Source: the human T2T-CHM13v2.0 reference genome, Homo sapiens
Length of the DNA stretch: 64,000 nt
Assembly (NCBI RefSeq): GCF_009914755.1
Contig: NC_060926.1
Direction: 5' to 3' (one strand)
The position numbers were made by a program, and so were the translations under genes. A model generated the notes under the pieces. That model did no database searches, was not told the origin of the DNA, and was given only the letters and a program-made list of their open reading frames with translations. Positions 2,035 through 50,727 of this stretch are shown here, piece by piece. Each line of letters begins with the position of its first letter. The stretch's first letter is position 1.

Positions 2035-2094
2035 AATTTCAATTTTAATTTTTTTTGAACCTACTTTATTTCAAGAGCACTTTTCTTTGAAGCT

Positions 2095-3122
2095 TTTTGT
2101 TTATCTATTTTTATTTTTGTGGGTATATTATAGAGGCATATATTTATGAGGCACATAAGATGTTTTGATACAGGCATGCAAAGAATAATAATCACATAGT
2201 AGAAAAGGGTTACCCATCTCTTCAAATATTGACCCTCTGTGTTTCAAAATATTCAATTAAATTATTTTAGTTATTCTAAAATGTACAATTAAGTTATTAT
2301 TGACTAGAGTCACCCTGTTTTGCAATCAAATAGTAAATCTTAGTCATTCTTTCTATTTTTTGTACCCATTAACCTTCCCCACTTCCCACCTCTACAACAC
2401 TCCATGACTCTTTCCAGCCATCTTTCTTTCTACTCTCTTTCTCCATAAGTTCAATTCCTTTGGTTTTTAGATCCCACAAATAAGTGAGAATAGGCCTGTT
2501 CGTCTTCCTGTGCCTGGCTTATTTCACTTAGCATCATGACCTCCAGTTCCATCCATGTTGCTGTGAATGACAGGATTGTATTCATTTTTATGGCTGAAGA
2601 GTACTCCAATCCATTATGTATATGTACAATTTTTTTAATCCATCCACCTGTTGATGGACACTTAGGTTGCTTCCATAACTTGGTTATTTTGAATAGTGTT
2701 GCAATAAACATGGGAGTATAGCCATCTATTCAATATACTGATTTTCTTTCTTTTGGGTATATGCCCAGCAGTGAGATTGCTGGATCATATGGTAACTCAA
2801 TTTTTAGTTTTTTTGAGAAACCTCCAAACTGCTCTCTATAGTGGTTGTACTAATTTACCTTCCTACCAACAATGTGCAAGGGTTCCCTTTTCTCCACTCC
2901 TCACCAGCATTTGGTATTGTCTGTCTTTTGGATAAAAACCATTTTAAATGGGGTGAGACGATATCTCATTATAGTTTTGATTTGTGTTTCTCTGATTATC
3001 AGTGATGTTCAGCACCTTTTCATATGCGTATGTCCCATTTGTATGTCTTCTTTTGAAAAGTATATATTCAGATATTTTGCCTATTTTTAATCAAATTATT
3101 AGATTTACACCTACAGAGTTGT
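2095..3122 (-). mobile_element. L1MA1-4-like 5'-truncated 3' end
   Basis: 'ttttgtgggtatattatagaggcatatatttatg...gatacaggcatgca' tail motif; ORF 2451-2711(-) [20 protein letters not shown]...WMELE matches the L1 ORF2p C-terminus. Confidence 0.85.
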
Positions 3123-3299
3123 ATCTTTTCTCAGCTTTTCCTCTCTCTTAGCTCCGTCTCAATGTCCAAGTGGGCAAGATTTGGTAAACATTGTCAAGGA
3201 TGGGAAATTCCAGGTTGTTTCTCATCTTGTAGCATCCTGAGCATGACCGAGACCAAAAAAGATACATTCTTTTTAAAATTTCTGCCTTCTTCTCACTAG

Positions 3300-3570
3300 A
3301 GTTGTCATATGGGCCAGATTGAGATGGTTGGGACACAGAGATGGAACAGATCCACTGGAGTTTGAATGCTTTTTGGAAATTGGCAGTATGAGGAATTCTG
3401 GATAGACAGATGCATAACAAATGTCAGACTGAGAGTATCTTCCCAGGTGAGGTGAGGTGGTTGGAAAGCCATTAGCATTGGTGGAAGTCCAGGTAGGGAC
3501 ACGAAGGCCTGGTGAGGAGTGAGTGACAAGTGAGTACCCTGGTTTGCAGGCAGAGCATGGTTTCAGAAAA
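3300..3570 (-). mobile_element. Possible degenerate L2 fragment
   Basis: 'ggaagtccaggtagggacacgaaggcctgg' and 'ttttggaaattggcagtatgaggaattct' resemble antisense L2 ORF2 sequence. Confidence 0.35.
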
Positions 3571-4289
3571 TCTTAGGATGAACAACAGACCATTGTTCAG
3601 AGAAACATAGGCTATCAGCACCAAGCAAATATAGTGAGAATTGATAGACTGAGGTCCATTAGAAAAACAGGAAAGGAACACAGATTTTTGTCCAGACAGT
3701 GCTTGGAAGTGAAAGAGGACACCAAACAGAATACTCTTGGAGAGATCACTCAAAACAGAAACCCAGTAATGAGAATTGGGTGGTTAGACAAAAACTGATT
3801 AACAATGAAGAAGCGAGAGCTGGTTATAAAAACAGGTTATGTACAAAAAAGAGCTGGTTATTTAAAAAATAACAGTAGTTTATAGAAATCGAGTCCTACA
3901 GGACTTACGAAACTACTTAATTCTTTGATAGAACTTTTTAAAAAGTTTCCTTAGCTATTTGATTCCAGAATCTGTGGTAGGGCTGAGCATGTACATTAAG
4001 CTTAGTTAGCATTTGGTTTGGGCACCTGATGAATGCAGAGAAATGTGTTAGCTTCCTGAGGTTCCTTTTGAGGTTTTTTCCTCTCATTCTCGGCAGGTAA
4101 TTTTTATTATTTCTGCAATTTCCATTTCTAAATTCAATGAAAGAAATTCTCAAATGATTGATTGAGCCTGAAATTCTAGTTTTGGATTTATTCTTATTAA
4201 GCAAAAGTTTATTTAACATTAAACTTCAAATATTAAGCATAGGTTAACATAGGCCAAAATATCATAATTCGTTTGTTTGAAGCTCCTAT

Positions 4290-4461
4290 TTTTGGTTTGT
4301 TGTTTGTTTTTTGAAACATGGTCACACTCTGTCACCTGGACTGGAGTGCAGTGAGGCAAACATGGCTCACTGCAGCCTGGACTTCCTGGATAATCAAGCG
4401 ATTGTCCCACCTCAGCCTCTCAAAGTGCTGGGATTACAGGCTGGAGCCTCCATGCTTTGCC
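4290..4461 (-). mobile_element. Free Alu monomer (FRAM/FLAM-like)
   Basis: Single arm only: 'cactctgtcacctggactggagtgcagtg...cctcagcctctcaaagtgctgggattacagg' preceded by a T-rich tail. Confidence 0.85.
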
Positions 4462-4692
4462 TGAAGCTGCTGTTCTGTATATTGCAGTTTAAATATTTCA
4501 CCAGAGTTGTGATTAACATCAGAAAACCTGAAACTGCTACTTATGATACCTGGCCATAATATGGTACTGGTTTCCCAGAATGCAATAGAAAGTACGTTTT
4601 TAAAGATGTATATACCACCCTTACAATAGTGATACGCTATGCTTCAATGAATAAAAGTAAAATTTCTTAATACACTCATTTTATAAATGACA

Positions 4693-5620
4693 TTTTCTGC
4701 TCATTGAATTGTGATATACATGCATAGCAGTACAAATATCACAAGTGTACAGCTCAACAAATTTCCAAAACCTGAACACACCTACATAGCCAGAGCTCAA
4801 ATTATTTTTTAAAAACAAAAATACCAAATAATACCAGCCCCTAGTAAGTATATACCTCCCAAAAGTTACCACTATCCTAATTTGTGGTATCATGGATTAG
4901 TTAGCTAATGGATTGGTTTTGTTGTGAAACATTAATGGTTTTGTTGTGATATATATATGTAGCTATGTATGCAATTATTGAATCATATAGTGTGTCTAAA
5001 TATTTCTCCCAATATTGTTTTAAAATTCACCTGTAATGTTAAAGAGATTTATAGTTCATTTAATCTTGTTGTGTAATATTTTATTTGGCATATATGCCAC
5101 AGTTCATTTACACTAATGAACATCTGGGTGGTTTCTGATTCAGCACTATTATGAATAGTGCTGCTATGAACATTTTAGTACATGTCTTTTGGAGAACTCG
5201 TGTATTTCTGGTGGGTGCAGTGGAATTTCTGGGCCGTAGGTTATACTTATGTTAAATTTTAGTGGAAGCTGCCAAATAGGCAGGGCTTGAGAGTTTAAGT
5301 TATTCTGTATCCTTGCCAATAATTATTACTTTCCATTATTACAATTTTAGCCATTCCAGAGCCTGAGTACTCATGTTATTTGGGGTTTCAACTTTCATTT
5401 CTCTAATGGCTGATGAAGCTGAACAACTTTCAGTATGTTTATTAAATATTTGGATATAATTTCTGTAAAAAATATTTGCTCAAGGCTTTTGTTCATTTTT
5501 GTGTTTGGTTGCCTATTGTTTTTTAAAATTGATTTTAAGTCTTTTATGTAATTCGATATGAGTCCTTTGTTGATTATTTATGGCACGAATGTCTTCTCCA
5601 ACTCTCTGGGTTGCCTTTTA
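4693..5620 (-). mobile_element. Ancient L1M (L1ME/L1MD-like) 3' region
   Basis: 'aagtgtacagctcaacaaatttccaaaacctgaacacacc' and 'tatgaatagtgctgctatgaacatttt' are motifs of old L1M 3' ends. Confidence 0.75.
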
Positions 5621-5996
5621 ATGTTTTTGTAATTTTTTAAATTTTTAATCTTCGTGGGTTCATAGTAGGTATATATATTTATGGGATACATGAGATGTTT
5701 TGATACAAGCATGAAATGTGAAATAATCACGTCATGGAGAATGGGATATCCATCTGCTCAAGACTTTATCCTTTGTATTACAAGCTATCCAATTACATTC
5801 CTATAATGATTTTAAAATGTACGATTATCATTGACTATAGTCACCCTGTTTTACTATCAAATAGTAGGTCATATTCATTCCTTTTATTTTTTGTACCCAT
5901 TAACTTTCCCCACATCCCACCCCCTGAAACCCTCACTACCCTTCCCAGCCTCTGGTAATCATTTTTCTATTCTCAAATCTCCAAAAGTGCCTTTGG

Positions 5997-6301
5997 TTTT
6001 TTTTTTTTTTTTTTTTTTTTTTTAGATAGATTCTCACTCTCGCCCAGGCTGGAGTGCAGTGGAGCAATCTTGGGTCGCTGCAATCTCCGCCTTCTGGGTT
6101 CAAGCAATTCTTCTGCCTCAGACTCACTGGAAGCTGGGATTACGGGTGCACGCCACCATGCCCAGCTAATTTTTGTATTTTTAGTAGAGACAGGGTTTCA
6201 GTATGTTGGCCAGGCTGATCTTGAACTCCTGACCTCAGGTGATTTTCTGCCTTGGCCTCCCAAAGTGCTGGGATTACAGACGTGAGCCACTGCACCTGAC
6301 C
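5997..6301 (-). mobile_element. AluS (Sx-like) inserted in the L1MA
   Basis: Poly-T followed by a dimeric Alu ending 'gtgagccactgcacctgacc'. Confidence 0.95.
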
Positions 6302-6626
6302 CAATTGTTTTGGTTATTAGATCCCACAAATAAGTGAGAACATGGCATGTTTGTCTTTCTGTGCCTGGCTTATCTCACTTAACATAATGGTCACCAGTTC
6401 CATTTATGTTGTTGCAAATGACAGGATCTCACTCTTTTTGTGGCTGAATAGTATTCCATTTTATATATGTACCATTGTGTCTATGTATCTGTTGTTAGAC
6501 ACTTAGATTGCTTCCAAATCCCAGCTCATGTAAATAGTGCTGCAATAAACATGGGAATGCAGATATCTTTTTGATATACTGAATTCCTTTCTTTTGGGTA
6601 TATGCATTGTAAGTATATATAAAATA

Positions 6627-6677
6627 TTAGTTTGGTGCAAAAGTAATTGTAGTTTTTGCCATTAAAAGTAATGGCAA
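6627..6677. mobile_element. MADE1 (Hsmar1-derived MITE), truncated on one side
   Basis: TA then TTAGTTTGGTGCAAAAGTAATTGTAGTTTTTGCCATTAAAAGTAATGGCAA: one terminal inverted repeat, the spacer and the start of the second repeat. Confidence 0.9.
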
Positions 6678-9600
6678 TTTAATCTTGTGCAATATTTCAT
6701 TTGGTATATATTCCACAGTTCATTTATCCTAAGGAACATCTGGGTGGTTTCTGATTCAACACTATTATGAATTTGGAGATTCCTCAAAGAAATAGTTTTA
6801 GTTCTTTAGAACTTGTGTGAGCAACTTTCAATATGTTTATTAAATATATTCAAAAGTTGTTCATACCCAGCAGTGGGATTGCTGGATTATATAGTAGATA
6901 TAGTTTTAGTTTTTTTAGGAATCTCCAAATTGTTTTCCATAGTAGATGTAATAATTTATATTCTCACTGAAAGTGTACAAGAGTTCCCTTTTCTCCACAT
7001 CCTCACCAACATTTGTTATTGTCTGTCTTTTGGACAAGTCATTTTAACTGAGGTGAGATGATATCTCATTATAGTTTTGATTTGCATTTCTCTGATAATC
7101 AATGATGAGTACCTTTTCATATGCCAGTATGATATTTTTATGTCTTCTTTTGAGAAATGTCTATTCAAATGTTTTGCCAATTTTGTATTGGATTATTAGA
7201 TTTTTTTCTATAGAGTTGTTTGAGCTCCTTATATACTCTGGTTGTTAATCCCTTGTCAGATGACTAGTTTGCAAATATTTTCTCCCATTTTGTGAGTTGT
7301 CTCTTCACTTTGTTGAGTGTATCCTTTGCTGTGCAGAGCTTTTTAACTTGATATGATCCCATTTGTCCATTTATGCTTTGGTTGCCTATGCTCATGAGGC
7401 ACTATTCAAGAAACTTTTTCCACCCTTATTATAATGATACCTGGAAAAAAAAAGAAAGAAAGAAAGAAAAGTTTGCCAAGACCAATGTCCTGGATTTTCT
7501 CCCCAGGGTTTTCTTGTAGTAGTTTCATCATTTGAAGTCTTAGACTTAAGGCTGTAATTCATTTTGATTTGATTTTTGTATATAGTGAGGGGGAGGGTTC
7601 TAGTTTCATTCTTCTACATATGAATATCCAGTTTTTATAGCATTATTTATTGAAGAGACTGACTTTTCCCTAGTTTATGTTCTTGACACCTTGGTCAAAA
7701 ATGAGTTGACTGTAGGGTGTATGGATTTTTTTCTGAGTTGTTTATTATGTTCCATTGGTCTATGTGTCTGTTTTCATGACAGTGCCATACTGTGTTGATG
7801 ACTATAACTCTGTAGCATAATCTGACTTCAGGTAATATAATTCCTCCAGTTTTGTTCTTTTTGCTCAGCATTGATTGCTTTTACTCAGATTATTCTGAGT
7901 CTTTCATGGGTTCAAATAAATTTTGGCATTGCTTTTTCTACTTTGAAGAATGTCCTTGATATTTTGATAGAGATTGTATTGAATTTGTTGATTGCTTTGC
8001 GTAGTATGGACATTTTAACAATATTCATTCTTCCAATCTATGAACATGGAATACATTTTCATTTTTTGCTATCCTCTTCAATTTCTTTCTTCAGTGTTTC
8101 ATACTTTGCATTATAGAGATTTTTCACTTCTTTGGTTAAGTTCATTGCTAGGTATTTAACTTTATATGTGGCTATTGTAAATGGGATTCCTTTTTTATTT
8201 CTTTTTCAGATTGTTCACTGTTGGCATATAGAAATGCTACTTATTTTTGTATGTTGATTTTGCATCTGGCAACTTTGGCGAGTTTTTCAATTCTAATGCT
8301 TTTTTGTGGCATCTTTAGATTTTTTCAAATATAAGATCATATCATCTGCAAATAAGGATAATTTGACTTTGTCCATTGCAGTTTGGATGCCCTTTATTTC
8401 TTTTATCTGATTGCTTTAGCTAGGACAACCAATACTATATTGAATAAGAATGGTGAAAGTGTGCATTCTTGTCATGTCCCAGATCTTAGAGGAAAGACTT
8501 TCAGTTTTTCCTCATTTAGTATGATACTAGCTGTGGGCCTGTCATATATTGCTTTTATGTTGAGGTATGTTCCTTCTATCTTCAGTTTTTTATTTAGGGT
8601 ATTTTATCATGAAAGGAAGTTGAATTTTATCAAATTCCTTTAATCATCAATGAAAGGATCATATGATTTTTATCCTTCATTCACTTGATACAATGTATCA
8701 CACTGATTAATTTGAGTATCTTGAGTCATCTTTGCATTACAGAAATAATCCCCCTTGTTCATGATGAATGATCTTTCTAATGTATTGATGAATTGGTTTG
8801 CTAGTGTTTTCTTGAGGACTTTTGCATCAATATTCACCAGAGATATTGGCCCATAGTTTTCTTTTTTTAATGTGTGTTTGTCTGGTTTTGGTATCACGGT
8901 AATACTGGCCTCATAGAATGAGTTTGAAAATGTTCTGTCCTCCTCTATATTTTGGAATAGTTTAAGTAGGATTTGTATTAGTTTTTCTTTAAACGTTTCA
9001 TAGAATTCAGCATTGAAACTAAGTCCTGGGATTTTGTTTACTGGGAGAATTTTTATTACGTTTTGATATTGTTACTTGTTATTGGTGTGTTCACCTTTTG
9101 GATTTTTTTTTATGGTTCAGTCTTTGTACGTTGTATGTGTCTAGGAATTTTACCATTTCTTCTAGATTTTTCACTTTGTGGACTTACGTTGCTCATAGAG
9201 GCCACAAATAATCCTTTGAATTTCTGGGATAGCAGTTGTAACGTCTCCATTTTCATTTCTGATTTTATTTATTTGGACCTTTTCTCATTTTTTCTTTGTC
9301 TGGCTAAAGTTTGTCAATTTTGTTTAATTTTTAAAAAAACAACTTTTTGTTTCATTGATTTTTGTTGTTTTTTATTTCAGTTTCATTTATTTCCGCTCTG
9401 ATCTTTATTATTTATTTTCTTCTAATTTTGGGTTTGGTTTGCTCTTGCTTTTATAGTTGTTTAAGGTTTAGAATTAGGTGTTTTTTGAAGTTTTTTCTCT
9501 TATTTGTTGTAGGCACTTAAAGCTACAAGCTTCCCTCTGAGTAGTGCTTTTGCTGTATCCCATAGGTTTTGGTATGTTTTGTTTCCATTGTCATTTATTT

Positions 9601-12600
9601 CAAGAAATTTTTTAGTTTCCTTCTTAATTTCTTCATTGACCCACTGGTCATTCAGGAGCATATTCTCTAATTTCTATGTATTCGTATAGTTTCCAAAACT
9701 CCTATTGTTATTAATTGCTAGTTTTATTCCATGGTGGTTAGAGAAAATGCCTGATATTATTTCAATTTTTTGTGTGTTTTAAGACTTCTTTTGTGACCTA
9801 ACATATGATCTGTCCTTGAGAATGAGCCATGTGCTGAGGAAAAGAATGCATATTGTGCAGCTGTTGGATGATATGTTCTGTAAATATCTATTAGATCCAT
9901 TTGGTCTCTAATGCAGTTTAAGTCTCATGTTTTGTTTTGTTTTTTTTTTCTCTTTTTCTGATGTTCTGTTTGGAAGATCTATCCAATGCTGAGTGTGGGG
10001 TGTTGAAGTCTCCAACTATTATTGTACTGGGGCCTATCTCTCTCTTTAGTTCTAGTAATATTTGCTTTATATATCTATGTGCTCTCATGTTGGGTGCATA
10101 TGTATTAAAAATTGTTATATATTTTTGCTCTATTGATGCTATTATCATTATATAGTGACCTTTTTCTCTTCTTACAGTTTTTGTCTTGAAATCTACTATG
10201 TCTGACATAAGAATAGCTACTTCTGTCCTTTTTTAGTTTCTATTGGCATGGAATATCTTTTTCCATCCCTTTACTTTTAGTCTACTTGTGTCTTTTTATG
10301 TAAAGTGTATTTACTGTAGGCAATAGATCAATGGGTCTTGTTTTTTTTTCATTCACTCAGCTAGTTGATATCTTCTGATTGGAAAGTTTAGTCCACTTAC
10401 ATTCAATGTTATTATTTATATGTAAGAACTTACTCCTGCCATTTTGTTATTTGTTTTCCGGTTGACATGTGACTTTCTTTCTTTCTTTCCTTCCTGTCTT
10501 TTTTTAATAGAGGTAATTTTCTCTGGTGATATGATTTTCTTTCTTGCTTCTCATTTTTTGTGTATTCATTGTATGTTTTTTGGTTTCAGGTTATGTCGAG
10601 GCTTGTAAATACTGTCTTACAACCATTATTTTCACCAGATAACAATTTAACACTATTTGCATAAAGAAACAAACAAATAAAACTAATAAAAACTGTATGC
10701 CTTAACTTCACCCTGCTTTTAAATTATTGTTATTTCTATTCATATCTTATTTTACAGTTGTGTCTTGACAAGTTGTTATAGTTATTATTCTTGATTGGTT
10801 CATCATTTGGTCTTTCTACTTAGGATAAGAGTAGTTTACACACCACAGTTACAGTTTTACAATTTCTGTGTTTTTTTGTGTGTGTGTACTTGCTATTACC
10901 AGTGAGTTTTGTTCCTTCAGGTAACTACTTATTGTTCATTAATGTCCTTTTCTTTATGATTAAAGTAATCCCTGTAACATTTTTTACAGGACAGGTCTGG
11001 TGTTGATGAAATCCCTCAGGTTTTGTTTGTGTGGGAAAGTTTTTATTTCTCCTTCATGTTTTAAAAATATTTTCACCAGATATACAATTCTAGGGTAAAA
11101 GCTTCTTTTGTCCTTCAGCAGTTTAAATATGTCATGCCACTCTCTCTCTTCTGGCCTGTAAGGTTTCCACTGAAAATCTGTTGCCAGACATATTGGATCC
11201 TCGTTGTATGTTATTTGTTTATTTTCTCTTTCTGCTTTTAGAATCTTCTCTTTATCCTTTATCTTTGGGAGTTTGATTATTAAATACTTTCAGTTAGTCT
11301 TCCTTGGGTGAAATCTGTTTGGTGTTCTATAACCTTCTTGTCCTAGGATATTGATATCTTTCTCTAGGTTTGGGAAGTTCTCTGTTATTATATATTGGAA
11401 TAAACTTTGTACCTGTATCTCTTTCTCTGTCTCCTCTTTAAGGCCAATAACTCTTAGATTTGCCTTTTGAGGCTATTTTCTAGATCTTATAGGCATGTTT
11501 CATTGCTTTTTATTATTTTTCCTTTGAACTCCTTTGTGTATTTTCAAATAACCTGTCTTCAAGCTCATTAATTCTTTCTACTGCTTTATCATTTCTACTA
11601 TTAAAGGACTCTAATGCATTCTTCAGTATGCCAGTTGCATTTTTTAGCTCCCGAATTTCTGCTTGTTTCCTGTTAATTATTTCAATCTCCTCCTTAATCT
11701 GGTAGAATCCTGAATTCCTTCTTTGTTGTCTTGAATTTCTTTAAGTTTCCTCAACACAAGTATCTTGAATTACCTATACAATAGGTCACATAATTCTGTT
11801 TCTCCAGGATTGGTCGCTGGTGCTGTATTTAGTTTATTTGGTGAGGTCATGTTTTCCCGGATGGTCTTGATACTTATAGATGTTCATCTGTGGCTGGGCA
11901 TTGAAGAGTTAGGTGTTTATTATAGTCTTCACAGCCTGGGCTTGTTTGTATCTGTCCATCTTGGGAAAGCTTTCCAGATATTTGAAATGACTTGAGTTTT
12001 GTGATTTAAGATGTATCTGTTTTATGGTGCATCCAAAACCCAGTAACACTGTGATTCTTGTAGATGCGCTGAGGTCCTACCTTGATGGTCTTGGACTAGA
12101 CCCAGGAGAATTCTCTGGATTACCAGGCAGAGATTCTTGTTTTCTTCCCTTAGTTTCTCTCAAACAAATGGAGTCTCTCCCTCTCCCTCTGTTCTGACCC
12201 ACCTGGGGGGTGGAATGACACGAGCACCCCTGTGGCCATTACCAATAGGACTGGGTCTTGTCTAAGGTTTGCTGTAACTACTTCCTGGCTACTGCCTATG
12301 TTCACTCAAGGCCATGAGGCTCTACAGTCAGCAGGTGGCAAAGCCAACTGTGCCTGTTTCCTTCCCTTTAGGGCTGTGAGGTCCTGCAGGACCTAGGCAG
12401 GTTTAGAGGTGTCATCCAGTAGTTAGGGACTAGAGTCAAAAACCTTAAACATTTACCTGGCATTCTATTTTACTGCAGCTGAGCTTGTAGGCAAACTACA
12501 AGATAGAGCATTTCCCAGTTTTCTCTCCCTTTTCTAATAACAGAGGAGCCTCGCCTCATGGCCTATGCCACCACAATTCCACTGTAAGACTACCATCAAT

Positions 12601-13891
12601 GTTTCCTTCAGGGCCAAGGGCTCTTCAGTCAGCTTGTGGTAAATGCTGGTGGCTGGGACACTCCCTTCAGGGCAGTGGACTACCCTCTGGCCCAGTGCAG
12701 ATTCAGAAATGCCATTCAATACCAAGTCCTGGAATCAGAGACCCCAAGAGCCCACTTGGTGTCTACCCACTTGTGGCCAGGCTAGTACCTAAGGTGCAAG
12801 ACAAAGTCTCTTTCACTATTCCCTCTGCTTTTCTCAAGATGGAGTCTCACATCAAAGCCACAACAGCTGGGAATGTGCTCAGTCTCACCTGAAACCAGCA
12901 AGTCTCTGACCCTCAATGTAGTACCTGGGTATATTGTTGGTTATTCAGAGCCCAAGGGCTCTTCAGTTTGCAGGTGATAAATCCTACCAGGACTGGATCC
13001 TTCCCTTCAAGACACTGGGTTCCCTTCTGGCCCAGAGTGTCTAGAAAAGTTGCACAGGAACTAGGACCTGAAATGACAGCCTCACAACTCTTGACCAGTG
13101 CCTATCCTGCTGTGGCTGAGTTGGTATCCAAAGTGCAAGACAGTCCCCCCACTCTTCCCGCTGCTCTGCTCAAGTAGTAGGAAGGAGTCTCTTTTGGAGC
13201 TGTGAGCTGTGCAGCCTGGGGTTAAAGGAGGGATGATGTCAGCACTGCCTTACCTTCCCTGGCTGTCTTAGTAGTTTGTGTGCCCTCTCAGTCCTCTGGT
13301 TCTAGGCCCAGTTCAACCCTAGGACTCACCTAAAAGTTGTAATCCTTGTTGTCTAAGCTGCCTTTCAAGTTTATCAGAGCCCCGGAGGAGAGCTTTAGCC
13401 CACAATGGCAAGGCTTTCAGGAAGTCAAATTCTGCCTGCTGGAATTGGCAATTTTCCTCTGTCTAGGGCTTGTTTAAATGCTTAAATGCTCCCTCCATGG
13501 GTGGATGCCAGCTGAGTTTGATCCAGTTTTGCTTTCTTCTATAACAGGATAGCACTGTGTTCAATGCCTCAAAATTGCTGCACTCTCCCTCTCTCTATTG
13601 CACAGAAACACTCCACACCACACTGCTGCTGCCAGAGAATGAGGGAAGAGTGGTGTCTGTAATTTGAGACTGTTTTCTCTACCTCTTCAGTACCTCTTTC
13701 AGTGATATGAAGTTAAAACCAACTACGATTGCTCATCTGACTTTTTGATCTTATAAAGGTTTCTGTTCGTTTGTGTTTGTTTGTTTTTTAGTGTAGATAG
13801 TTGTTAAATTGATATCCTTGTGGTTGAGATGACAGGAGAGGTTTCTCTTCTGCCATCTTGATCCATCCCTCTCCTCTATTTTTAGTTTTTT

Positions 13892-47400: not shown

Positions 47401-49902
47401 AAGGGCATTACATAATGGTAAAGGATTCAATTCAACAAGAAGACCTAACTATCCAAAATGTATATGCACCCAACACGAGATCACCCAGATTCATAAAGTA
47501 AGTTCTAAGGACCTTCAAAGACACTTATATTCTCACACAATAATAGTGGGAGACTTTAACACCCCACTGACATTATTAGACAGATCATTGAAGCAGAAAA
47601 TTAACAAAGATATTCAGGATCTGAACTCAACATTGGACCAAATGGATATGATAGATGTGTACAGAACTCTCCACCCTGAGACAACAGAATATATATTCTT
47701 CTTATTGCCACATGACACATACTCTAAAATTGACCACACGCTGAAACATGAAACAATCCTCAACAAATGCAAAGAACCGAAATGACACCAAACACACTCT
47801 CAGACCACAGCAGAATGAAAATAAAATCAAGACTAAAAAATTAATCAAAACTATACAATGACAGGAAATTAAACAACCTGATCCAGATGACTTTTTTTGG
47901 GTAAATAATTAAGGCAGAAATCAAGAAGTTCTTTGAAGCTTGTAGAACAAAGATGCAACATGCCAGAATCTCTGGGATATAGCTAAGGCAGTATTACTAG
48001 GGAAATTTATAGTACTAAATGCCCACACCAAAAAGTCAGGAAGATCTCAAATTAACAGCCTAATATCACAAGTAGAAGAACTAGAGAAGCAAGATCAAAC
48101 CAACTCCAAAGCTAACAGAAGATCACAAATAACCCAAATCAGAGTTGAACTGAAGATCAAGGCACAAAAGTGTATTAAAAAATTCACCAAATCCAGGAGA
48201 TGGTATTTTGAAAAATATAATAGATAGGCCACTTGCTAGACTAACAAAGAAAAGAGAGAAGATCCAAATAAATACCATCAGAAATGATAAAGGAGATTTT
48301 ACCACTAACCCCCCAGAAAAACACATAACAATTATAGGCTGATATGAACACCTCTATGCACACAAACTAGAAAACCTAGAAGACATGGATAAATATCTGG
48401 ACACATACACCCTCCTGAGACTGAAGCAGAAAGAAATTGTTTCCCTGAGCAGACCAATAATGAGCTCCAAAATTGACTCAATAATAAATAGTCTGCCAAG
48501 CAACAAAAGGCCCAGGACTAGGCAGATTCACAGCCAACTTCTACCAGATGTACAAAGAAGAGCTGGTAATATTCCTACTAAAACTATTTCAAAAAATTGA
48601 TGAGGAGGGACTGCTTCCCAACTCATTCTGTGAGGCCAGCATCACCGTGATACCAAACCCTGGCAGAGACAAAACAAAAAAGAAAACTTCAGGCCAGTAT
48701 ACTTGATGAACATCTGTGCAAAAACACTCAAGAAAATACTTGCAAACTGAATCCAGCAGCACAACAAAATGCTAATCCACCACAATCAATTAGACTTTAT
48801 CCCTGGGATGCAAGGTTGGTTCAACATACACAAATCAATAATGTGATTTATCACATAAACAGAACTAAAGATAAATATTACATGATCATCTCAATAGAAG
48901 CAGAAAAGGCTTTCAATAAAAAGCCTTTATTATGTTAAAAATAATATAGGCTTTATGTTAAAAAACTGTCAATAAACTAGGTATTGGAGGAACATACCTC
49001 AAAATAATAAGAGCCATTTATGACAAACCCAAAGCCAACATCATACTGAATGGACAAAGGCTGGAAGTATTTCCTTTGAAAACTGGCACAAGACATGGAT
49101 GCCATCTCTCACCACTCCTATTCAACATAATATTGGAAGCCCTGACCAGAGCAATCAGGCAAGAGGAAGAAATAAAAGGAATCTAAATAGGAAGAGAGGA
49201 TGCCAAACTATCCCTGTTTGCAGATGACATGATTGTCTAACTAGAAAATGCAATAGTCTCTGCCCAAAAGCTCCTTAAAATGATAAACACTTCAGCAAAG
49301 TTTCAGGATACAAAATCAACATGCAAAAATCACTGGCATTCCTATACACCCACAAAAATAAATATGAGTGCCAAATAAGGAATGCAATACCATTCACAAT
49401 TGACACAAAAAGAAATAAAATACTTAGGAATACAGCTAACTATGGAGGTGAAATATCTCTAAAATCAGAATTACAAAACACTGCTCAAAGAAATAAGAGA
49501 TGACACAAACAAATGGAAAGATTTCATGATGAAGATACTAAAAGCATGGCAACAAAAGCAAAAATTGGGGATCTAATTAAACCTAATTGTTTTCTGCATG
49601 GCAAAATAACTTATCAACAGATTAAATAGGCATATTACAAAATGGAGAAAATATTTGCAAACTATCCATCTGACAATGATCTAATAACCAGCATTTATAA
49701 GAAACTTAAACAAATTTGCAAGAAAAAAAGCAAACAACCCCATTAAAGTGTGGACAAAAACCATGAACAGCCTCTTCTCGAAAGAAGACATACCTGTGGC
49801 CAACAATAATATGAAACAAAAGCTCAACATCCCTGATCATTAGAGAAGTGCAAATTGAAACCATAATGTGATACCATCTCACACCAGTCATAATGGTTAT
49901 TA

Positions 49903-49955
49903 TTAAGTTGGTGCAAAAGTAACTGGTTTTTGCCGTTAGTTTTGCATCAACCTAA
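49903..49955. mobile_element. MADE1, internally deleted
   Basis: TA + TTAAGTTGGTGCAAAAGTAA...TTTTGCATCAACCTAA + TA, inserted in L1 ORF2. Confidence 0.92.
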
Positions 49956-50727
49956 TATTAAAAAGTCAAAAAATAACAGATGCTGGTGAGGTTGTGGAGA
50001 AAAGGGAATGCTTATACATGTTGATTGGAGTGTAAATTTCCTCAACCATTGTGGAAAGCAATGTGGCAATCCCTCAAAGAGTTAAAAAGAGAACTATTCC
50101 ATCCAGCAATCCTATTGCTGAGTATATACACAAAGGAATATCAATTTTTCTACCATAAAGACGCATACATGTGTATGTTCATTCCAGCACTATTTACGAT
50201 AGCAAAATATGGAATCAACCTAAATGCCCATCAGTGGTAGAGTGGATAAAGAAAATATGGTATGTCTACACCATGGAATACTATGCAGCCATAAAAAAGA
50301 ACAAGATTATATCTTCTGCAGGAACATGGATGGAGTTGAAGGCCATCATTCTTAGCAAACTAATGCAGGAATAGAAAACCAAATATCACATGTTCTCATT
50401 TATAAGTGGGAGCCAAATGATGAGAACACATGGACATAAAGTGATACTGGAGCATACTTGAGGGTGGAAGGTGGAGGAGGGGGAGGATTAGAAAAAATAG
50501 CTATTGAGTATTAAGCTTAGTACCTGGGTGATGAAATAATCTGTACAACTAACCCCAGTGACAAGAATTTACCTATATAACAAACGTACACATGTACCCC
50601 TAAACCTAAAATAAAAGTTAAAACATGGAAAAAAAATAAATATTGTTTGTAATCCTACTACATGTTGGTAACCACCATAAACTTTTGGCCTTTATCTTTT
50701 CAGTATTTTTCTATATGTATGTAATTA

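What the first reader, a model, noticed from the sequence alone, without database searches (positions are those of the whole stretch)
6604..6862. Patchwork templated insertion joined to a half MADE1
Seen: L1MA 'tttgggtatat|acccagcagtggg' is split by ~260 bp. In order it contains a TA-flanked MADE1 cut off early in its second terminal repeat (6627-6677); a ~95-bp copy of 5059-5156 (6678-6772, about 8 substitutions and one 3-bp gap by my count); TTGGAGATTCCT (6773-6784), the reverse complement of 6917-6928; ATAGTTTTAGTT (6792-6803), equal to 6900-6911; AGAACTTGTGT (6808-6818), close to 5193-5203; and 6819-6847, a copy of 5421-5449. Established: serial template switching (MMBIR/FoSTeS, polymerase-theta end joining) makes such mosaics, and MADE1 was mobilised by the Hsmar1 transposase. 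Inference: this is a fossil of double-strand-break repair, possibly caused by aberrant Hsmar1 cleavage at the MADE1. The ~90% identity to the donor is broadly compatible with an anthropoid-era event.
Basis: partly seen in the sequence, partly recalled or inferred. Interest (0 to 1): 0.7.

Follow-up and report, generated by a model that had tools for sequence, protein, structure and literature searches.

The report
Ancient DNA-repair patch beside broken transposon
A 259-base insert in a human intron is stitched from five short copies of nearby DNA plus half of a tiny transposon; it is likely the scar of an ancient chromosome break, a known kind of event with no predicted function.

Summary
The patchwork is real. 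A 259-bp insert (6604-6862) splits an L1 with no host base lost and 2 bp repeated. Anatomy fits a chimeric repair-mediated duplication (Pace et al. 2009), a described class.

The half MADE1 is ordinary: 25 of 57 sampled copies lack an arm, and 28 of 30 lost arms end within 6 nt of the central hairpin, as here. None of 12 one-armed copies had templated neighbours within 1 kb. Hsmar1 cuts at element ends, so it does not explain the truncation.

New: the donor lies in a ~4-kb tract itself copied from 177.5 kb upstream, and that source's only large deletion spans the patch site.

Best model (0.35): a MADE1 already sat at this TA site, its hairpin broke or stalled replication, and serial template switching filled the gap. 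Rivals: late-arriving MADE1 (0.30), transposase excision (0.22). Primate orthologues, not available here, would decide. New member of a known kind.

The parts
6604..6862 (.). whole insertion, 259 bp, in an antisense L1 (L1MA-type; subfamily name recalled, not from a call); host flanks intact, AT repeated
6604..6626 (.). 23-bp AT-rich filler ending in TA; no significant source
6627..6677 (+). MADE1 fragment, 51 of 80 nt: outer end intact, ends at the foot of the 9-bp central stem; 3 differences from the sample majority arm
6677..6772 (+). direct copy of 5058-5156 (8 substitutions, one 3-bp gap)
6770..6794 (-). inverted copy of right flank 6907-6931 (22/25); AAT microhomology with the preceding piece
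6788..6807 (+). direct copy of right flank 6896-6915 (18/20); carries bases found only in the local L1
6808..6817 (.). linker; match to 5193-5203 not above chance
6818..6847 (+). direct copy of 5420-5449 (28/30)
6845..6863 (-). fold-back (snap-back) copy of 6818-6836; borderline significance alone
5058..5156 (+). donor 1, an old L1-derived stretch 62-68% like other L1 copies
5420..5449 (+). donor 2
6896..6931 (.). donor 3, right flank, sampled in both orientations
3125..5620 (+). non-L1MA part of the tract copied from G000:C2:154019616 onward (177.5 kb upstream); 15.3% divergent; the 1.1 kb tested has two copies in the genome
2035..13874 (-). composite L1 unit (1.1-kb L1 3' piece, copied tract, full-length L1) flanked by a target-site duplication at about 2018-2032 and 13875-13891; marks the window as the acceptor

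Best explanation
The 259-bp insert is a mosaic of five copies of nearby DNA and half a MADE1, set in an L1 that lost no base; it is likely the scar of a break repaired by repeated template switching, and the break likely began at the hairpin of a MADE1 that would already have sat at this TA site. Shown: the pieces, their orientations, 1-3 bp junction homologies, intact host, local origin of the right-flank pieces. Inferred order, read left to right on the + strand: the left end gains 23 nt of filler, re-primes at ATA and copies the MADE1 (from the sister chromatid) until the new strand can fold on itself just past the loop, jumps to 5058-5156, touches the right flank twice, copies 5420-5449, snaps back on itself and joins the right end through one base. 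No transposase and no function are needed. The repair-scar core, shared with the first three rivals, stands at about 0.95; the MADE1-first hairpin trigger is the uncertain part.
For: Pieces above chance. Host intact with +2 bp in a TATATA run; only 0.7% of positions of this L1 lie inside TATATA and 580 of 7991 are TA starts, while 42 of 58 intact MADE1 ends abut TA, so the break site looks like a mariner target. The fragment ends where 28 of 30 lost arms end. The fold-back lies 3' of its template, which fits left-to-right synthesis. Both right-flank pieces keep C at 6912 and one keeps G at 6916 where the flank now has T, as expected of copies made together. MADE1 hosts 3 of 824 proximal duplications in Pace et al. 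Table S1 against 0.3-0.5 expected by bases, P 0.004-0.013. The upstream paralogue's only long host deletion (window-equivalent 6389-6908) spans the same site, as expected if both copies once carried a fragile element. Patch-donor divergence is 7.9-8.8% pairwise (95% range 4-14%), about 4% per lineage, against 8.4% for MADE1 arms from their majority: the point estimate falls later than typical MADE1 insertion.
Against: The 23-bp filler lies between host and MADE1, needs an extra step here and has no source. None of 12 one-armed MADE1 showed templated neighbours within 1 kb, nor 4 of these 12 genome-wide, so arm loss does not usually leave a patch. The paralogue's deletion junction holds no MADE1 remnant. 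Only 1 of 28 rebuilt MADE1 sites lies in TATATA. With 10295 copies a 260-bp patch holds a MADE1 by chance at 0.0009, so about one coincidence is expected among a thousand patches. The age range overlaps Hsmar1 activity, so it does not exclude excision. The three MADE1 rows of Pace et al. have another anatomy (insert inside the element) and n is small.
Confidence: 0.35

Rival explanations
1. Latecomer. The patch formed first at an unrelated break; MADE1 later inserted at a TA in its AT-rich first 23 bp and then lost an arm, as most copies do, taking an unknown part of the patch with it.
For: Explains filler, TA and intact outer end with no extra step. Arm loss at this position is common. About one such coincidence per thousand patches is expected. 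The three-way pattern patch 3, local 6, paralogue 7 allows a patch as old as the duplication (t/T 0.78, range 0.39-1.0).
Against: Needs the break to fall by chance in a TA run with +2 bp and the paralogue's deletion to overlap by chance (about 261 of 10,400 aligned bases). The patch's divergence point estimate is lower than that of MADE1 arms.
Confidence: 0.3
2. Transposase excision with aborted gap repair. Hsmar1 cut out a MADE1 at the TA; repair from the sister recopied part of it and then switched templates.
For: Both host flanks survive to within a base of the TA run, net +2 bp, as an excision site would. Tc1 excision leaves templated inserts in 24% of deletions (PMC4490562); rice excisions leave 1-123 bp fillers in 58 of 94 cases (PMC4423477). 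Hsmar1 was active about 58-37 million years ago (PMC2800235), and the upper age range of the patch reaches MADE1-level divergence.
Against: Neither register gives an exact duplicated-TA footprint: one base must be lost in each. The age point estimate is about half that of MADE1 arms. The cut inside the element is not a transposase site.
Confidence: 0.22
3. Capture. The MADE1 piece, with or without its flank, was picked up from another locus or from an excised element at an unrelated break.
For: In 15 of 20 chimeric duplications of Pace et al. the second donor lay on another chromosome. One copy (L004) shares a 10-mer with the filler.
Against: No second filler-MADE1 junction in the genome; the L004 flank scores 10 against a best of 9 among 58 other flanks; the nearest upstream MADE1 is only 85% identical.
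Confidence: 0.09
4. Not a separate repair event: template jumps during L1 reverse transcription, or during the copying of the 4-kb tract, made the patch.
For: All donors lie inside the copied tract, and the two long pieces are as close to the source as to the local copy.
Against: Inverted pieces cannot come from one RNA. The patch shares bases with the local copy that the paralogue and close L1 copies lack: 6898-6903, 6922, and two columns of donor 1 where outgroups side more with the paralogue. Patch-local divergence is lower than the duplication's 15.3% (P 0.02, open to selection bias).
Confidence: 0.04

Closest known systems
Repair-mediated duplications (Pace, Sen, Batzer, Feschotte 2009, PMC2671141; text parts 1-3 of 8, passages, Table S1 part 1 and four searches seen)
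   Same: Insert of 50 bp or more interrupting a transposable element, donor within 5 kb (1.6 kb; their peak about 1.2 kb), microhomology, filler, no poly(A), about 8-11% divergence like rows they mark 'All primates' or HCOR.
   Different: Their chimeras have two donors (20 of 1,136); this has three donor regions, five pieces, two inversions and a transposon half. The donor also has a paralogue, which their filter would likely drop. Not listed in Table S1.
Polymerase-theta templated insertions and snap-back synthesis (PMC4912351, PMC4490562; passages seen)
   Same: Mix of untemplated, in-trans and snap-back pieces; single-base junction homology; break ends preserved.
   Different: Median insert 7 bp in vitro and templates next to the break; here 30- and 96-bp pieces come from 1.2-1.5 kb away, which is closer to strand-invasion repair. 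Enzyme not testable.
DNA-transposon excision scars with filler (Tc1 in C. elegans, PMC4490562; rice, PMC4423477; passages seen)
   Same: TA-rich site, flanks kept, foreign filler.
   Different: Part of the element remains and 23 bp separate it from the host; no exact footprint.
One-armed MADE1 (bioRxiv 10.1101/115030; passages seen, supplements not seen)
   Same: Single intact terminal repeat, the majority form (6246 of 10295).
   Different: None of 12 sampled one-armed copies has a templated patch beside it.

Membership tests
Repair-mediated duplication (Pace 2009) | Insertion of at least 50 bp interrupting a transposable element | tested here: met
   259 bp in an L1 with contiguous flanks
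Repair-mediated duplication (Pace 2009) | Donor on the same chromosome within 5 kb and more than 50 bp away | tested here: met
   main donor 1.6 kb upstream
Repair-mediated duplication (Pace 2009) | Only one other copy in the genome | tested here: not met
   two copies, local and 177.5 kb upstream; shared bases favour the local one. This is a pipeline filter rather than a mechanistic trait
Repair-mediated duplication (Pace 2009) | Microhomology, filler or short duplication at junctions, no poly(A) | tested here: met
   1-3 bp homologies, 23-bp filler, 2-bp repeat
Repair-mediated duplication (Pace 2009) | Empty site in an outgroup genome | not testable with these tools
   no primate genomes held; the paralogue has lost the site; other L1 copies serve only as a proxy
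Polymerase-theta end joining | Inserts templated from sequence beside the break, including snap-back | tested here: met
   6770-6794 and 6788-6807 clear, 6845-6863 borderline
Polymerase-theta end joining | Short inserts only from the immediate flank | tested here: not met
   96 and 30 bp from 1.2-1.5 kb away
Polymerase-theta end joining | Dependence on POLQ | not testable with these tools
   fossil event
MADE1 | Hsmar1-type terminal repeat and central spacer | tested here: met
89-98% to genomic copies over about 50-70 nt; exact 22-nt centre shared with 184 other places.
MADE1 | 80 bp with both repeats and TA on both sides | tested here: not met
   51 nt, TA on the left only; missing arm not found in the 10 kb to the right. 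A fragment
Hsmar1 excision footprint | Duplicated TA with or without a few terminal bases | tested here: inconclusive
   net +2 bp, but each register needs one lost base
Hsmar1 excision footprint | Event within the period of transposase activity | tested here: inconclusive
   4-14% pairwise range against 8.4% per lineage for MADE1 arms
L1 3' transduction (for the 4-kb tract) | Poly(A) at the far end of the carried flank | tested here: not met
   3124/3125 joins the tract to a truncated L1 piece with no T run
L1 3' transduction (for the 4-kb tract) | Target-site duplication round the unit | tested here: met
   present, but equally expected if a resident L1 was later repaired from the upstream copy

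The most novel reading that the evidence does not exclude
MADE1 palindromes were heritable fragile sites in the primate germ line: one MADE1 sat in this L1 before the 4-kb tract was copied from 177 kb upstream, and both copies then broke there independently, leaving a patchwork in one and a 261-bp deletion in the other. Genome-wide, MADE1 would be several-fold enriched at repair-mediated duplications and would lose arms at a fixed point beside the loop without transposase.
Probability: 0.25. Interest if true: 0.55.

Novelty: new member of a known kind. Interest (0 to 1): 0.27.

Why it matters
As one locus it matters little: an intronic scar in old repeat DNA with no predicted function. It is a clear fossil of multi-step template switching in the germ line. 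If the wider reading held, some ten thousand 80-bp palindromes would be a dated, genome-wide natural experiment on how short hairpins break and are repaired in primates, and would explain why most MADE1 copies have one arm, which bears on SETMAR binding sites and mir-548 genes. That reading is testable with public primate alignments.

Tried and rejected
Source for the 23-bp filler: candidates 4844-4854, 5661-5677, 6458-6468 and 5074-5084; the best score is at chance level. Distant donor of filler plus MADE1: none. Paralogue as an empty-site control: it has deleted the site. Patch from an L1 family copy: rejected, 62-68%. Templated neighbours of one-armed MADE1: 0 of 12 of the 25 one-armed loci given 1-kb flanks (the window as positive control gave 2 hits at 1 kb and 3 at 1.7 kb); 0 of 4 searched genome-wide; of four more from the query-biased, one (L006) gave a 14-bp hit belonging to a separate hairpin; L002 (simple AT repeat) and L009 (rearranged, both ends kept) were left out. 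Donors beyond 1 kb would be missed in 8 of the 12. Short junction matches: mean 6.9 at 30 broken arms against 6.5 at 52 intact ends, P 0.09, with unequal search space. Three-way L1 tree to place the end of the copied tract: unresolved; the third copy is itself rearranged there, and the L1 3' part differs significantly from neither the unique part nor the L1 body. 7420-7440 as a second templated piece from 4615-4635: E 0.74, not accepted. Pace and Feschotte 2007 and Miskey 2007 could not be read. The palindrome review PMC7999016 (passages) gave only general support. Searches were seen mostly as listings.

Full report
Observation. The insert is at the stated place. A small-word self-search recovers the long copy 6677-6772 of 5058-5156 (88.9%, E 1e-31), 6818-6847 of 5420-5449, an inverted 6770-6794 of 6931-6907 and a direct 6788-6807 of 6896-6915. 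Against 50 null tiles of 4 kb from the surrounding region (the two loci holding the paralogue left out) and 200 shuffles, these four pass (0, 0, 0 and 1 of 50; 0 of 200 each). These five pieces cover 176 of 259 bp, the MADE1 51, and 33 stay unassigned. Other L1 copies show the empty site as GGGTATATACCC or a close variant; the window keeps every host base and repeats AT. Junction homologies are 1-3 bp. L1 subfamily names used here are recalled; no repeat library was available.

Which donor. A genome search with the long piece gave 4 matches: itself, the local donor (89%), a copy 177.5 kb upstream (88%) and a weak L1 hit. The upstream copy belongs to a block matching window 3125 to about 13870. 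Its non-L1 part differs by 367 of 2406 sites, 15.3%, and 1.1 kb of it has exactly two copies in the genome. The upstream L1 has its own target-site duplication and its host continues on both sides; in the window a different duplication encloses 2035-13874, so the window is the acceptor. The non-L1 pair is closer than the L1 bodies (13.4% against 17.2% without CpG, P 1e-4; transversions 5.2% against 7.7%, but transitions alike), the junction at 3124/3125 has no poly(A), and the source is near and in the same orientation. I infer that a resident L1 broke and was repaired from the upstream L1, copying about 4 kb; a chimeric retrotransposition is the weaker alternative. Over the two long pieces, private changes are patch 3, local 6, paralogue 7, with one three-way site: patch age relative to the duplication 0.78, range 0.39-1.0. 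The right-flank pieces carry bases at 6898-6903 and 6922 that the two closest L1 copies and, where it survives, the paralogue lack; two columns of donor 1 also group patch with local, and none clearly groups patch with paralogue. So the donor is most likely local and the patch somewhat younger than the duplication (7.9-8.8% against 15.3%, P 0.02, with selection bias; at the same 126 sites local and paralogue differ by only 14).

The half MADE1. An exact search for the 22-nt centre found 185 places. I took the first 60 of the 184 others in list order, chromosomes 1-4, and dropped 3 that share flanks with a fourth. 25 of 57 lack at least one arm tip, and 28 of 30 such arms end within 6 nt of the centre, where the window's copy ends. 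The sample is selected for an intact centre and cannot see cuts inside it. A published annotation counts 6246 one-armed copies of 10295 (10.1101/115030, passages; its supplementary annotation, not seen, may list this copy). Hsmar1 nicks at the element's ends and was active about 58-37 million years ago (PMC2800235, passages). The truncation is therefore ordinary and not a transposase cut. The missing arm was not within 1 kb in 10 of 10 tested. The upper 95% bound is about 19-26%, so a rare link is not excluded.

Is MADE1 the cause? For: the break sits in a TA run; both flanks are intact with +2 bp; MADE1 hosts 3 of 824 proximal duplications in Pace et al. against 0.3-0.5 expected (using their 45% repeat share and the 10295 count); and the paralogue's one long deletion of host sequence, among the six indel blocks of 30 bp or more listed (the others are the window's Alu, a 56-bp insert and an unpolarised 100 bp), spans this very site. 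Against: 23 bp of unexplained filler separate host and MADE1; there is no exact footprint; no MADE1 remnant at the paralogue's junction; only 1 of 28 rebuilt MADE1 sites lies in TATATA; and a chance overlap of 0.0009 per patch gives about one case per thousand patches. Weighing these by judgement, not by calculation, MADE1-first gets about 0.57 and the latecomer 0.30. Within MADE1-first I favour the hairpin (0.35) over excision (0.22), because arm loss at the loop is common without any sign of end cleavage and the patch's per-lineage divergence (about 4%) is below that of MADE1 arms (8.4% in outer columns of 52 arms); the ranges overlap.

Mechanism. Shown: piece order, orientation, junctions, local origin. 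Inferred: left-to-right synthesis from the left end, because the fold-back follows its template; forward progress along the upstream donor (5058, then 5420) with two visits to the right end; final joining through one base. Long pieces from over 1 kb away point to strand invasion; the short in-trans and snap-back pieces look like polymerase theta, which mixes untemplated, in-cis and in-trans synthesis (PMC4912351, passages) and leaves templated inserts after Tc1 excision (PMC4490562, passages). No enzyme can be assigned.

Known or new. It works like, and by all mechanistic features tested belongs with, the repair-mediated duplications of Pace et al.; it fails only their single-copy filter. It is not in their Table S1: no GALNT13 row and no chr2 row with coordinates beginning 1540-1549 (the hg18 position is my estimate from recall). 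A search for GALNT13 with MADE1 found 0 papers. A search for MADE1, palindrome and hairpin listed 20 of 1,541 papers; those holding all three terms were microRNA papers, and none treated MADE1 as a fragile site (listing only). Subscription journals are largely outside this library.

Verdict. Real, old, most likely without function; a well-preserved multi-piece member of a known class. The transposase trigger is unproven and not the leading reading. The wider claim that MADE1 hairpins are germ-line fragile sites is open and cheap to test. Interest 0.27.

Noticed in passing
window 3125-13870 and G000:C2:154019616-154029350: Old local duplication at 177.5 kb distance inside GALNT13 intronic sequence; the window is the acceptor. 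Likely ectopic repair of a broken L1 from an upstream L1 that ran 2.5 kb into its flank. Larger and perhaps more interesting than the patch.
   Followed up: partly
G000:C2:154022536/154022537 (L023): The paralogue's L1 lacks window-equivalent 6389-6908, 261 bp of host around the patch site, with a clean junction. Unexplained coincidence (about 3-5% by chance).
   Followed up: partly
window 7416-7471: 56-bp insert absent from two related L1 copies, ending in an A-rich tail, near the inferred end of the copied tract; weak match to 4615-4635 (E 0.74).
   Followed up: partly
L041-L100 (sample of 60 MADE1): Arm loss clusters within 6 nt of the 22-nt centre (28 of 30 arms). A 9-bp deletion between two GCAA repeats recurs (L003, L016, L057, L066, L083, L095, L099). 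Several copies carry internal duplications (L048, L058, L062, L075, L085).
   Followed up: partly
L068; L061, L074, L079, L088: L068 appears to have an Alu starting at the MADE1 centre (Alu start recognised from recall). Four copies share flanks, so one insertion was spread by segmental duplication.
   Followed up: no
window 49901-49959 and G000:C2:154187124 (L013): Two further damaged MADE1 nearby: one internally deleted with both ends, inside an L1; one one-armed, 13.5 kb upstream of the finding, 85% identical to the fragment and not its donor.
   Followed up: partly
window about 5975-6300: Alu present only in the window copy of the duplicated block, so younger than the duplication; its subfamily would give a minimum age.
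   Followed up: no
PMC2671141 Table S1 rows 176, 406, 745, 533: MADE1 hosts 3 and HSMAR1 1 of 824 proximal repair-mediated duplications; 'MADE1' does not occur in the paper's main text.
   Followed up: partly
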